64,000 bases of DNA, taken from sequence record MF158043; one strand, written 5' to 3'. Numbering within the stretch: the first letter of the stretch is position 1; every line of letters starts with the position of its first letter. Shown here piece by piece: positions 14,461-15,876 of the stretch. This DNA comes from Shigella phage Sf16. Under the pieces are notes generated by a model. That model saw nothing but the letters and a program-made list of their open reading frames with translations, searched no databases and was not told the origin of the DNA. The position numbers and the translations under genes were made by a program.

Positions 14461-15876
14461 ATGAGCGAATTATTTAAACACTCGCATCTACATGCAGGTT
14501 TAACTGAAAATGGTGCTGTTAACCACACCTCTTCAATGTCTGCACTGGTAGATTTCTACAAAGCTGCTGGTTCAAGCAGAACAAATGTAGAAGTTCTTCC
14601 AAACTTGTTTTACAAGGCAATGCGAGAAGATATTGATGTAGCAGTTCGAATCCTGTTACATATGCGAGATGCACGAGAAGGTATGGGTGAGCGTAAAGCG
14701 TTCCGTTATACTCTTACTAAAGCAATCTCTGACGGGATTCTTGATGAGTTCCAAGTATTACGTATCATGGACAAGATTTCTGATTTAGGTCGTTATGATG
14801 ACTTTAAAATCTTTGTTGATACACGTTACGAAACAGATGCTTTCAAGCATTTAGAAGCTGCACTGTTAGACCCTGCAACATCGGCTCTGGCAGCAAAATG
14901 GTTACCACGAGTAAAATCACGACACATGCGCTTTGTTCGTCGTTTCTGTAAGTTTGCAAATCTTTCAGAGAAGCAGTATCGAGTTCTTCTGTCAGCACTG
15001 TCTGACACTGTTGAACAAAAGATTTCAGCAAATGAGTTCGGAGAGATTGATTACAGCAAGCTTCCTTCACTGGCTGCTGCACGTTATCAAAAACTCTTCA
15101 GTCGTAAAGATGGTGAGCGTTATGCAGCATACATTGCAGCACTGACTAAAGGTGAGACAAAGATTAATGCTGGTGCAGTCTACCCTTATGACATTACGAA
15201 GTCAGTTGGTTATGGTAATGCAACCGTTGCAAATGAACAGTGGAAAGCTTTACCAAACTGGATGAAAGATGGTGAAAACATTCTGTGCATGGCAGATGTA
15301 TCTTCATCTATGACTTGGGAGCGACATGGTTCTGTTACAGCGCTAGACATTGGTGTATCTTTAGCCCTGTACGTTTCAGAACGTAATACAGGTTGCTTTA
15401 AAGATGAATTGATGGTTTACTCTAGCAGACCTCACTTCATCACATTGAGTGGTGATTTGCAGACTCGCTTACGTCAAGTGAAGAGTCATGTAGAGTATGG
15501 TTCAACTGACTTACAAGCTGCTTTTGCAAGAATCCTTGAGATTGGTGTTAAAAACAACTTGACTCAGAAAGAGATGCCTAGTAAGCTTATCATCTTCTCT
15601 GATATGCAGTTTAATCAGGTTGATGGAGCAGATGGTCGTACTAACTTTGAAGCAATTCAAGAAAAGTACAAGAAAGCTGGATATGAGATGCCACAACTGG
15701 TATTCTGGTACTTAGCAAACCGTAACGGTACTTGTGAAGTGTCTGTAAAGGATAATGGTGTAGCAATGGTATCTGGTTTCTCTCCAGCCACTTTAAAAGC
15801 TTTGCTTGGTGGTGAGAAGTTCGACCCTATCAGCGTAATGCTCAAAGCAGTAATGATTGAACGCTACGATTGGTAA
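14461..15876 (+). CDS. TROVE/Ro60 (Rsr)-like protein with C-terminal vWA domain
   Basis: MIDAS motif ADVSSSM, then GSTD and IIFSDMQ, matching the Ro60 vWA pattern; N-terminal ~270 aa helical-looking. Confidence 0.55.
   Translation: MSELFKHSHLHAGLTENGAVNHTSSMSALVDFYKAAGSSRTNVEVLPNLFYKAMREDIDVAVRILLHMRDAREGMGERKAFRYTLTKAISDGILDEFQVLRIMDKISDLGRYDDFKIFVDTRYETDAFKHLEAALLDPATSALAAKWLPRVKSRHMRFVRRFCKFANLSEKQYRVLLSALSDTVEQKISANEFGEIDYSKLPSLAAARYQKLFSRKDGERYAAYIAALTKGETKINAGAVYPYDITKSVGYGNATVANEQWKALPNWMKDGENILCMADVSSSMTWERHGSVTALDIGVSLALYVSERNTGCFKDELMVYSSRPHFITLSGDLQTRLRQVKSHVEYGSTDLQAAFARILEIGVKNNLTQKEMPSKLIIFSDMQFNQVDGADGRTNFEAIQEKYKKAGYEMPQLVFWYLANRNGTCEVSVKDNGVAMVSGFSPATLKALLGGEKFDPISVMLKAVMIERYDW

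What the first reader, a model, noticed from the sequence alone, without database searches (positions are those of the whole stretch)
14461..15876. Phage-encoded Ro60/Rsr-like TROVE-vWA protein next to the tRNA island
The 471-aa product has a C-terminal vWA domain whose MIDAS region (ADVSSSM, then GSTD, then IIFSDMQ) mirrors the Ro60 pattern (VDVSASM ... GGTD ... IVFTDNE), behind a ~270-aa helical-looking N-terminal domain. Ro60/Rsr proteins bind Y RNAs and misfolded RNAs, and in bacteria their Y RNA genes lie within a few kb. The gene sits under its own sigma70-like promoter and ends about 170 bp before the first tRNA-island promoter.
Basis: partly seen in the sequence, partly recalled or inferred. 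Interest (0 to 1): 0.85.

Follow-up and report, generated by a model that had tools for sequence, protein, structure and literature searches.

The report
Phage Ro60-like ring and partner RNAs
The gene does encode a Ro60-shaped RNA-binding protein, which was already reported for its close relative in phage Bas63. The new result is that the tRNA cluster next to it hides four small RNAs of a widespread, undescribed family that tracks this protein across phages and shares its signature with the enigmatic Class I RNAs of Dictyostelium.

Summary

The new part is the RNA. Four units in the first tRNA spacers (16207-16281, 16370-16441, 16850-16931, 16939-17070) share a 7-bp closing stem, a 3' CUG and an unpaired UUACAGCAA. 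The fourth also carries a permuted tRNA mimic built like bacterial YrlA Y RNAs.

In 65 distant loci encoding the protein, the motif occurs 97 times on the gene's strand and once on the other, mostly within 500 nt of the gene, with 60 different stems. A covariance model built only from those loci ranks the window's four units as its top four hits (three with E 3e-5 to 3e-4, the fourth at E 0.17).

The design equals that of Dictyostelium Class I RNAs. Physical binding, expression and mechanism are inferred.

The parts
14393..14421 (+). Sigma-70-like promoter candidate (TTGACA-17-TAGAGT) 40 nt upstream of the start codon
   Evidence: It is a consensus match only; such sites are not enriched over shuffles in this region.
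14461..15876 (+). Gene for a 471-aa Ro60-fold protein of the DUF2828/DUF7788 family (PHROG 850), the ortholog of Bas63 gp130
14461..15270 (+). N-terminal helical (HEAT-like) ring domain, residues 1 to about 270
15274..15825 (+). vWA domain (DUF7788), residues about 272-455, with MIDAS residues D279, S281, S283, T349 and D381
   Evidence: DUF7788, residues 275-455. Invariant MIDAS residues. hhalign to the Ro60 vWA at 90% probability. 11 of 51 members hit Pfam vWA_Ro60.
15887..15918 (+). 12-bp hairpin immediately after the stop codon, overlapping a promoter-like site (15895-15923)
   Evidence: Function not tested.
15985..16014 (+). Best promoter-like site of the region (TTGACA-18-TATAGT with TG), 28 nt upstream of the first tRNA; likely drives the tRNA/small-RNA operon
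   Evidence: 11 of 12 consensus positions.
16207..16281 (+). Unit 1: Class I-like small RNA filling the tRNA-Glu / tRNA-Met spacer. Outer helix UGAC/GUCA, 7-bp stem AGACCAA/UUGGUCU, UUACAGCAAAC motif, 3' CUG
   Evidence: Fold. Motif statistics. R1 hit at 27.7 bits, E 3.2e-4. Rfam Dicty_Class_I alignment.
16370..16441 (+). Unit 2: Class I-like small RNA filling the tRNA-Met / tRNA-Asn spacer (stem AGGCCGU/ACGGUCU)
   Evidence: (29.4 bits, E 1.2e-4).
16850..16931 (+). Unit 3: Class I-like small RNA (outer helix GGAGC/GUUCC, stem AGACCAA/UUGGUCU)
   Evidence: (32.2 bits, E 2.6e-5, the best hit in the whole window).
16939..17070 (+). Unit 4: the same anchor enclosing a circularly permuted tRNA mimic. 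Anticodon-arm-like hairpin 16977-16993, T-arm 16998-17014, closed acceptor-like hairpin 17015-17030, D-arm 17032-17048. This is the YrlA-like architecture
   Evidence: Fold. Three unrelated versions of the AS hairpin in related phages. Covariation on 16 sequences: 95% paired, 20 of 23 pairs compensatory. RNAalifold independently predicts the same four helices. Rfam tRNA partial hit at 16948-17022.
16042..21116 (+). tRNA island (25 ARAGORN tRNAs plus tRNA-Tyr at 16598-16685) in which the units are embedded

Best explanation
The gene encodes a ring-shaped, Ro60-like RNA-binding protein of a sister family to TROVE Ro60 (Pfam DUF2828 + DUF7788). The adjacent tRNA operon encodes its probable partner RNAs. 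Units 1-4 fill inter-tRNA spacers. They would therefore be released from the polycistronic precursor by the same RNase P and 3'-end processing that matures the flanking tRNAs (inferred). Each unit has an 'anchor': a 7-bp closing stem with a fixed G-C pair, a 3' CUG, and an unpaired UUACAGCAA right after the 5' strand of the stem. By analogy with the Ro60-binding helix of Y RNAs, this anchor is what the ring would bind (inferred from genomic linkage). The interior is a variable 'cargo'. In unit 4 it is a complete, circularly permuted tRNA mimic, as in bacterial YrlA. In relatives elsewhere it is often an anticodon-arm mimic. The resulting RNP would act at the RNA or tRNA level to protect infection from host defence. 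One possibility is that it presents tRNA-like pieces as decoys or tethers for tRNA-directed enzymes. Another is that it handles damaged RNA, as Ro60 does. What is shown: the fold, the family, the orthology to Bas63 gp130 (an experimentally shown Ppl counter), the existence and covariation of the RNA family, and its strand-specific linkage to the gene. What is inferred: expression and processing of the units, their binding to the protein, and the downstream mechanism.
For: Protein: Ro60 is the best structural match by both methods. The MIDAS residues are invariant. hhalign links the C-terminal half to TROVE Ro60. Bas63 gp130 is 83% identical and syntenic, counters Ppl and was noted as Ro60-like (PMC11482910).

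RNA family: there are 4 motif matches in the window versus 0.13 expected. In 65 distant loci there are 97 strict matches on the gene strand versus 1 on the opposite strand and 0-2 in shuffles; 63 of the 97 lie within 500 nt of the gene, with 60 distinct stems. In the non-circular test, 100 of 305 in-register 7-mers find a complement versus 19-33 for shifted controls. Model R1, built without any FelixO1-like sequence, ranks the window's four units as its top four hits (three at E 3e-5 to 3e-4, unit 4 at E 0.17), and all 65 of its hits in the distant loci are on the gene strand.

The linkage does not run through tRNAs: 23 of 42 tRNA-free loci still have a unit within 500 nt of the gene, and T5 and Bxz1, which lack the protein, have no units. 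In the reverse direction, 24 of 97 RNA-seeded stretches contain the gene, always on the same strand.

YrlA likeness: the four helices covary. Rfam YrlA hits units beside DUF2828 genes at 33-41 bits, as well as or better than the bona fide Bxz1 YrlA at 32.5 bits.
Against: No experiment shows that the units are expressed or bound by the protein. gp130 alone, expressed from a plasmid or inserted into T7 (which lacks these RNAs), rescues T7 from Ppl, so at least that activity needs no cognate phage RNA. Most units found from the RNA side (73 of 97 stretches) have no DUF2828 gene within the fetched stretch and sit in tRNA arrays. 20 of 65 gene loci have no strict unit within 5 kb. Folding energies of single units are unremarkable (z -1.1 to -1.7). 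The N-terminal ring has no sequence-level link to TROVE, so ring homology rests on a predicted structure. There are only two negative-control phages.
Confidence: 0.6

Rival explanations
1. The protein works alone as a protein-level inhibitor, for example by binding and blocking Ppl through its vWA/MIDAS face. The ring plays no RNA role, and the neighbouring RNA units are unrelated to it.
For: gp130 alone suffices to rescue T7 on a Ppl strain. MIDAS vWA domains are classic protein-protein interaction modules, as in the Ku80, midasin and integrin hits. There is no TROVE sequence signal in the ring.
Confidence: 0.2
2. The units are processing or punctuation elements of phage tRNA operons: spacer hairpins recognised by host RNases or another factor. 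They lie near the gene only because the gene sits at the edge of tRNA arrays.
For: 185 of 243 units in RNA-seeded stretches lie within 300 nt of a tRNA, 181 of them on the same strand. The window's units exactly fill inter-tRNA spacers. Stable non-tRNA RNAs of unknown function are long known in the T5 tRNA region.
Against: 23 of 42 gene loci with no tRNA or tmRNA within 5 kb still have a unit within 500 nt of the gene. The T5 tRNA array has none. A processing signal would not need a conserved unpaired 9-mer plus tRNA-mimic cargo. Dictyostelium Class I RNAs, which have the same anchor, are free-standing genes (PMC7919456).
Confidence: 0.15
3. It is a functionally canonical Ro60. The Y-like RNA tethers the ring to host PNPase (a RYPER-like complex) and modulates RNA decay, as shown for Deinococcus Rsr and for Thermus phage phiLo Ro60.
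For: Same fold. YrlA-like partner RNAs. phiLo Ro60 binds two phage Y-like RNAs and attenuates PNPase (PMC12135203).
Against: The anchor motif (UUACAGCAA) differs from the GNCGAA/CGAA motif of YrlA and phiLo Yrl RNAs. R1 finds nothing near a TROVE Ro60. Most units carry no tRNA-like module. A PNPase link was not tested.
Confidence: 0.2

Closest known systems
Bas63 (JohannRWettstein) gp130, Felixounavirus (PhageMaP preprint, PMC11482910)
   Same: Ortholog: 83% identity over all 471 residues, with identical synteny (DUF5681 ORF, gene, then tRNA-Pro/Glu/Met...). The authors already noted structural similarity to Ro60, the position upstream of the tRNAs, and speculated that 'some tRNA genes are possibly Y RNAs'. 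Bas63 carries the same RNA units.
   Different: The paper did not identify the RNAs. The candidates are not among the annotated tRNAs; they are in the spacers, partly under two tiny minus-strand 'hypothetical protein' calls (bas63_0137 and bas63_0138). The anti-Ppl function was shown for Bas63, not for this phage.
Ro60/Rsr with Y RNAs (Xenopus/human Ro60; Deinococcus and Salmonella Rsr-YrlA; mycobacteriophage Bxz1 gp220; Thermus phage phiLo Ro60)
   Different: A different Pfam family: DUF2828/DUF7788 rather than TROVE/vWA_Ro60. BLASTP finds no significant similarity. It is 60-80 residues shorter. The RNA anchor is stem + UUACAGCAA + CUG rather than GNCGAA. There are several anchor-bearing RNAs per genome, most without a tRNA-like domain, and they are embedded in a tRNA operon.
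Dictyostelium Class I RNAs (Rfam RF01414; Kjellin et al. 2021, PMC7919456)
   Same: Terminal stem of 6-7 bp with compensatory changes; invariant 5' G paired to the C of a conserved 3' CUG(U); unpaired ...UUACAGCAA immediately after the 5' strand of the stem; variable interior followed by an A-rich tract; about 60 nt. In a joint alignment G1, U9, C11, A12, C14 and A15 are invariant. The Rfam model aligns end to end to units 1, 2 and 4.
   Different: Scores are below Rfam's threshold (21-29 vs 41.5 bits). Spacing between stem and motif differs by 1 nt. The phage units are operon-embedded, not DUSE-promoter genes. Class I RNAs were reported as unique to Dictyostelia, with Rnp1A as the known binder. 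Whether dictyostelids encode a DUF2828 protein could not be tested here.
Stable non-tRNA RNAs in phage tRNA clusters (T5 RNAI, RNAIII, RNA1, RNA2 and others)
   Same: Small stable RNAs, some tRNA-like, interspersed among phage tRNA genes, with function unknown.
   Different: T5 lacks the DUF2828 protein, and its RNAs do not match the anchor model (0 hits at E<=1).

Membership tests
DUF2828/DUF7788 phage 'RNA-binding protein' family (Pfam PF11443 + PF25043; PHROG 850) | Significant match to both Pfam models and full-length match to PHROG 850 | tested here: met
   DUF7788 6.4e-44, DUF2828 5.4e-27; PHROG 850 2.7e-178 over residues 1-471; all 51 aligned homologs hit both models.
Ro60 / TROVE family | TROVE domain (PF05731) detectable by sequence profile | tested here: not met
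   0 of 51 members hit at E<=10. The control Bxz1 gp220 hits at 9.4e-50. PDB phmmer and profile searches find no Ro60. BLASTP to gp220 is not significant.
Ro60 / TROVE family | Helical-repeat ring followed by a vWA domain (overall fold) | tested here: met
Ro60 / TROVE family | Remote sequence homology by profile-profile comparison | tested here: inconclusive
   hhalign gives 90.2% probability, E 1.5e-6, but only for residues 229-436 (last ring helix plus vWA). Residues 1-228 do not align.
Ro60 / TROVE family | Complete MIDAS motif in the vWA domain | tested here: met
   D279, S281, S283, T349 and D381 are invariant in 51 sequences and collinear with DVSGSM and GGTD of Bxz1 gp220.
Ro60 / TROVE family | Binds Y RNA and misfolded RNA | not testable with these tools
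   Only genomic linkage to candidate RNAs is available.
YrlA Y RNAs (Rfam RF02553; Chen et al. 2014) | V, T, closed acceptor-like (AS) and D stem-loops enclosed by a 5'/3' stem, encoded within 4 kb of the ring protein on the same strand | tested here: met
   Unit 4 fold. 20 of 23 pairs are compensatory across 16 sequences, including all 7 AS pairs. RNAalifold predicts the same helices. The unit lies 1.07 kb downstream on the same strand.
YrlA Y RNAs (Rfam RF02553; Chen et al. 2014) | GNCGAAN0-1G motif near the 5' end | tested here: not met
   The 5' region carries UUACAGCAAAC instead. GGCGAAGG occurs only as part of the T-stem of unit 4.
YrlA Y RNAs (Rfam RF02553; Chen et al. 2014) | Reaches Rfam's gathering score (69 bits) | tested here: not met
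   No YrlA hit in the window at E<=10. Relatives score 33-41 bits. The bona fide Bxz1 YrlA also scores only 32.5 bits.
Dictyostelium Class I RNAs (Rfam RF01414) | Short terminal stem with compensatory changes; invariant 5' G pairing with the C of the 3' CUG(U) | tested here: met
   G2-C6' is fixed and 6 of 7 pairs are compensatory. The 3' C-U-G-U consensus is. Definition taken from PMC7919456.
Dictyostelium Class I RNAs (Rfam RF01414) | Unpaired 11-nt motif CCUUACAGCAA adjacent to the 5' strand of the stem | tested here: inconclusive
   9 of the 11 nt (UUACAGCAA) are shared and invariant positions coincide, but the spacing differs by 1 nt and the first two C's are absent.
Dictyostelium Class I RNAs (Rfam RF01414) | Reaches Rfam's gathering score (41.5 bits) | tested here: not met
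   Window units score 21.2-23.4 bits; the best relatives score 29.3 bits.
Ppl counter-defence proteins (Bas63 gp130) | Orthology to the experimentally tested protein | tested here: met
   83% identity, 0 gaps, same gene order.
Ppl counter-defence proteins (Bas63 gp130) | Relieves Ppl-mediated restriction | not testable with these tools
   Shown only for Bas63 gp130 (PMC11482910).

The most novel reading that the evidence does not exclude
The stem + UUACAGCAA + CUG 'anchor' is the recognition element of DUF2828-type Ro rings in general. On that reading the phage units and the Class I RNAs of Dictyostelium are one RNA family, the Y RNAs of this second Ro lineage, and a eukaryotic DUF2828 protein is the missing core partner of Class I RNAs. 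In phages the anchor carries tRNA pieces. Some are elbow mimics. Others are anticodon-arm mimics of Lys-UUU, Thr-UGU and Asn-GUU, the exact substrate set of the PARIS nuclease AriB. These could serve as decoys or sensors against tRNA-cleaving defences.
Probability: 0.3. Interest if true: 0.9.

Novelty: new variant of a known kind. Interest (0 to 1): 0.72.

Why it matters
The protein half is already known: a Ro60-like phage protein, with an ortholog that counters Ppl.

The RNA half gives that protein concrete, testable partner RNAs. The published work could only guess that these were among the tRNAs.

It defines a widespread RNA family in phage tRNA arrays that Rfam 15 does not recognise (no family reaches its gathering score). 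It has about 300 distinct members in the roughly 1.5 Mb sampled here. This offers an explanation for a class of 'stable RNAs of unknown function' in phage tRNA clusters.

It extends the Ro60-Y RNA paradigm to a second, sequence-unrelated-looking protein family with a different RNA anchor.

It gives a specific hypothesis for Dictyostelium Class I RNAs. Their function and core partner have been open since 2004, and they were reported as unique to dictyostelids.

The anticodon-arm cargo suggests a new way for phages to deal with tRNA-cleaving immunity, alongside encoding resistant tRNAs.

Tried and rejected
1. Sequence searches of the protein and of a 51-sequence profile against PDB found no Ro60. 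Only fold comparison did.
2. Pfam TROVE was not hit by any member.
3. The outer-helix TTGACA/TTTACA of units 1, 2 and 4 could be a -35 box. I rejected this as the main explanation because unit 3 has GGAGC/GUUCC at the same place and both helices covary.
4. My T-arm/hairpin/D-arm scanner also reports tandem-tRNA junctions such as the tRNA-Met/Ile junction at 17424-17477. These were set aside, as Chen et al. also warn.
5. The first loose regex was too noisy (697 vs 364 in shuffles) and was replaced by a strict one with strand, shuffle and register controls.
6. The upstream DUF5681 ORF (14011-14382) is not a conserved partner: it has no hits in 65 distant loci.
7. Chen et al.'s supplementary YrlA alignments are not held. 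The AlphaFold-DB fold library was unavailable. Searches for DUF2828 identifiers in papers gave nothing useful. A peptide search in the partial dictyostelid proteomes of the Kjellin supplement found only an unrelated vWA protein. So the presence of a DUF2828 protein in Dictyostelium remains untested.
8. Rfam at gathering threshold finds only tRNAs in these loci.
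Full report
WHAT IS THERE. The window is a close relative of Shigella phage Sf14 (Ounavirinae, Mooglevirus). Positions 13900-16300 are 100% identical to NC_042075. It follows a co-oriented DUF5681 ORF (14011-14382). It precedes a + strand island of 25 tRNAs called by ARAGORN (16042-21116), plus a tRNA-Tyr at 16598-16685 that ARAGORN misses. A promoter-like site lies 40 nt before the ATG, and the strongest one of the region lies just before the first tRNA. Such sites are not more frequent here than in shuffles.

THE PROTEIN. It hits Pfam DUF7788 (6e-44) and DUF2828 (5e-27), and PHROG 850 'RNA-binding protein' end to end (3e-178). 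RefSeq already calls it 'RNA-binding protein'. Homologs occur in 709 of 50,697 phage records, including FelixO1-like, KVP40-like, Listeria, Staphylococcus, Enterococcus, Campylobacter and jumbo phages. They also include mycobacteriophages in which the homolog is annotated 'Ro-like RNA binding protein'.

Neither the sequence nor a 51-sequence profile finds Ro60 in the PDB. None of the 51 homologs hits Pfam TROVE even at E<=10. A genuine phage Ro60, Bxz1 gp220, hits TROVE at 9e-50 and vWA_Ro60 at 4e-54.

I conclude that this is a sister family of Ro60 with the same architecture. It is not a TROVE-domain protein by the usual sequence definition.

PRIOR KNOWLEDGE. Bas63 gene 130 is the ortholog: 83% identity, no gaps, same neighbours. 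The PhageMaP preprint (PMC11482910) reports several things about gp130. [quoted passage not shown] It lies directly upstream of the tRNA genes. Its deletion sensitises Bas63 to the Ppl defence system. Alone, from a plasmid or inserted into T7, it restores T7 growth on a Ppl strain. The authors speculate that some annotated tRNAs might be Y RNAs.

THE RNAs. Reading the tRNA spacers showed a recurring pair of motifs. The pattern AGRMC-NNN-TWCAGCAARC occurs 4 times in the window (0.13 expected). GGTCTGGT follows each within 60-120 nt.

All four units fold alike: an outer 4-5-bp helix, an AGA/G asymmetric bulge, a 7-bp helix, then unpaired UUACAGCAAAC. Both helices covary between copies, as in AGACCGU/ACGGUCU vs AGACCAA/UUGGUCU, and UUAC/GUAA vs UGAC/GUCA vs GGAGC/GUUCC. 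Units 1 and 2 fill the tRNA-Glu/Met and tRNA-Met/Asn spacers completely, so tRNA end-processing would release them (inference).

Unit 4 additionally contains four hairpins in order: an anticodon-arm-like hairpin (UUUCU-CUUAUAA-AGAAA), a T-arm, a closed hairpin capped by UACG, and a D-arm with GG. That is a circularly permuted tRNA. It is also the V/T/AS/D layout that Chen et al. 2014 define for YrlA Y RNAs.

In other FelixO1-like phages the ends of each unit are conserved while the interiors diverge completely. The closed hairpin of unit 4 exists in three unrelated sequences that all pair.

LINKAGE TO THE PROTEIN ACROSS PHAGES. I fetched 65 loci encoding relatives of only 38-45% identity.

A strict definition was used: N-G-R-N4, three bases, C[AC]GC[AG], then a perfect 7-bp complement followed by G within 260 nt. 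It gives 97 hits on the gene's strand, 1 on the other and 0-2 in shuffles. 45 of 65 loci have at least one hit. 63 of the 97 hits lie within 500 nt of the gene. There are 60 different stem sequences. Positions not enforced by the definition are also conserved: U5-A3' in 82 of 94, U9 in 88 of 94, A16 in 79 of 94, and an A-rich tract before the 3' strand.

A test that does not presuppose pairing also holds. Of 305 TNCAGCA matches on the gene strand, the in-register upstream 7-mer finds its complement in 100. Shifted controls give 19-33, and the opposite strand gives 22 of 285.

A covariance model (R1) was built from 29 short units of the distant loci only. Searched over the whole 64-kb window with filters off, its top four hits are units 3, 2, 1 (E 2.6e-5, 1.2e-4, 3.2e-4) and unit 4 (E 0.17, penalised for its 64-nt insert). 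Nothing else falls below E 0.3. Over the 65 loci, all 65 hits at E<=0.01 are on the gene strand. Bas63 has the same units.

For 16 units that carry the tRNA-like module (window, three FelixO1-like variants, 12 distant), the four helices are 95% paired versus 63% in shuffles. 20 of 23 pairs show compensatory changes. RNAalifold predicts the same four helices on its own.

Rfam's curated YrlA model hits such units beside DUF2828 genes at 33-41 bits, three of them over its full length. It scores a bona fide mycobacteriophage YrlA at 32.5 bits. All of these are below Rfam's gathering score.

CONFOUNDER. Starting from the RNA (pattern AGGATNNTTACAGCAAAC in viral contigs), 72 of 102 matches have the pairing partner. 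24 of 97 stretches contain a DUF2828 gene, always on the same strand. Most do not. 185 of 243 units there lie within 300 nt of a tRNA. So the family is above all a component of phage tRNA arrays.

The link to the gene is not merely through tRNAs. In 42 gene loci with no tRNA or tmRNA within 5 kb, 23 still have a unit within 500 nt of the gene. The tRNA regions of T5 (no DUF2828 protein) and Bxz1 (TROVE Ro60) have no hit at E<=1. Two negative controls are few, and a genome-wide census is needed.

DICTYOSTELIUM. Several short units weakly hit Rfam 'Dicty_Class_I_RNA' (21-29 bits; gathering score 41.5). The model's consensus is GaUcuC-CUUACAGCAA...A-rich...GagAuC-UG, which is the same design.

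Kjellin et al. 2021 (PMC7919456) define Class I RNAs by these features: a short terminal stem with compensatory changes; an invariant 5' G paired to the C of a conserved 3' CUGU; an unpaired 11-nt motif next to the 5' strand of the stem; a variable remainder; and a length of about 60 nt. They report the class as unique to Dictyostelia, with Rnp1A as a direct binder and three further associated proteins.

The curated D. discoideum sequences read GUUGAC-CUUACAGCAA...GUCAAC-UG. In a joint alignment with phage units, G1, U9, C11, A12, C14 and A15 are invariant, and the only systematic difference is one nucleotide of spacing.

No paper in the held library links Class I RNAs to Ro60, Y RNAs, DUF2828 or viruses. 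From memory, Pfam describes DUF2828 as a family of eukaryotes and viruses, and plant papers mention it. I could not test whether dictyostelids have it.

CARGO. 74 of 297 distinct units contain an interior hairpin with anticodon-arm geometry, meaning a 5-bp stem and a 7-nt YU-NNN-RN loop. Shuffled interiors average 3.2. Among units of 85 nt or less, too short to enclose a tRNA, the figure is 46 of 153 versus 0.6. The 'anticodons' are UUU (11), UGU (9), GUU (5), UCU (5) and CUU (3). In the 86-140-nt class, 56 of 101 units carry a T-arm.

[quoted passage not shown] The coincidence is striking, but AU-rich composition and descent from common phage tRNAs are alternative reasons. It is a lead only. 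The window's units 1-3 do not have such hairpins; unit 4 has one.

HOW IT MOST LIKELY WORKS. Shown: the fold and family of the protein; its orthology to an experimentally validated Ppl counter; and the existence, covariation and strand-specific, gene-proximal distribution of the RNA family. Inferred: the units are excised from the tRNA precursor; the ring binds their anchor; and the cargo (tRNA elbow or anticodon arm) engages tRNA-directed enzymes, as Y RNA effector modules tether or gate Ro60.

Because gp130 alone rescues T7 from Ppl, the RNAs are not required for that activity. They may regulate the ring, broaden its targets, or be replaced by host RNAs. Ppl has a PHP domain. From my own knowledge, E. 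coli RNase AM is a PHP-family exoribonuclease, so an RNA-level conflict is conceivable. That is speculation.

VERDICT. The finding as written is correct and already published for the ortholog. The follow-up adds a well-supported new RNA family as its probable partner. That makes the whole a new variant of the Ro60-Y RNA kind, with an unexpected and testable link to Dictyostelium Class I RNAs.

Noticed in passing
window 17896-18243 (+): A 115-aa ORF with HNH-like cysteine/histidine motifs sits between tRNA-Arg and the next element. It is absent from the Sf14 RefSeq record, where this gap is about 357 nt shorter, so the window is an Sf14 relative with a likely homing-endonuclease insertion. It has no Pfam hit at E<=0.01.
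   Followed up: partly
window 18405-18487 (+): A tRNA-like element not called by ARAGORN or Rfam. It has an acceptor stem AUGGGACG/CGUCCCAU followed by GCCA, a D-arm resembling that of the phage tRNA-Asn, a T-arm, and an anticodon stem GUAAG/CUUAC with a 9-nt loop CCUCCAAAA. It folds as a cloverleaf (-25.2 kcal/mol). It may be a pseudo-tRNA or an unusual tRNA.
   Followed up: partly
window 17294-17374 (+): A stretch of about 77-81 nt between tRNA-Lys and tRNA-Met that is absent from the Sf14 record. It forms a hairpin closed by GCCCCUU/AAGGGGC (-21.8 kcal/mol). Its origin is unknown.
   Followed up: no
window 17076-17217 (+): The 142 nt between unit 4 and tRNA-Lys fold into one long irregular hairpin (-40.4 kcal/mol). 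It has no family match. It may be another structured spacer RNA.
   Followed up: no
window 17468-17709 (+): Weak Rfam hits to permuted tmRNA (34.7 bits, 17468-17655) and alpha-tmRNA (17572-17709) in the 276-nt gap after tRNA-Ile. The gap also holds a promoter-like site at 17543-17571. Both hits are below threshold.
   Followed up: no
window 16598-16685 (+): tRNA-Tyr(GTA), annotated in RefSeq by tRNAscan-SE, is missed by ARAGORN and scores only 22.8 bits with Rfam tRNA.
   Followed up: partly
L122 (Bas63, MZ501086) 42749-43023: Two tiny minus-strand 'hypothetical proteins' (bas63_0137 and bas63_0138) are annotated over the positions equivalent to units 3 and 4. They are probably mis-calls over RNA genes. 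Their PhageMaP knock-out phenotypes, if recorded, would amount to unit knock-outs.
   Followed up: partly
L068 6895-7137: A non-permuted version of the tRNA-like unit: tRNA-shaped genes with acceptor stem and CCA whose anticodon arm is replaced by the anchor (CAAAC-UGAYAA-GUUUG followed by UAUUCAGCA). Rfam tRNA hits them at 121 and 113 nt. In tandem arrays, the permuted and non-permuted readings are ambiguous.
   Followed up: partly
units in L057-L220 (e.g. L105:1653-1725, L058:3084-3150, L115:4781-4851, L079:6609-6677): 30% of short units carry an anticodon-arm mimic. The commonest 'anticodons' (UUU, UGU, GUU) equal the substrate set of the PARIS nuclease AriB.
   Followed up: partly
phage records KU574722 (Pectobacterium phage CBB) and MT939486 (Erwinia phage pEa_SNUABM_12): Homologs of the protein are annotated as '(putative) structural protein' in two jumbo phages. 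If this reflects virion proteomics, the ring might be packaged and delivered with the DNA.
   Followed up: no
L221 (T5) 10285-21567: T5's tRNA region carries eight annotated stable RNAs of unknown function, some tRNA-like. None matches the anchor model, so other families of tRNA-array RNAs probably exist.
   Followed up: partly
distant loci L100, L110, L115: Phage-encoded tmRNA genes lie within 5 kb of the DUF2828 gene on the same strand in three loci.
   Followed up: no
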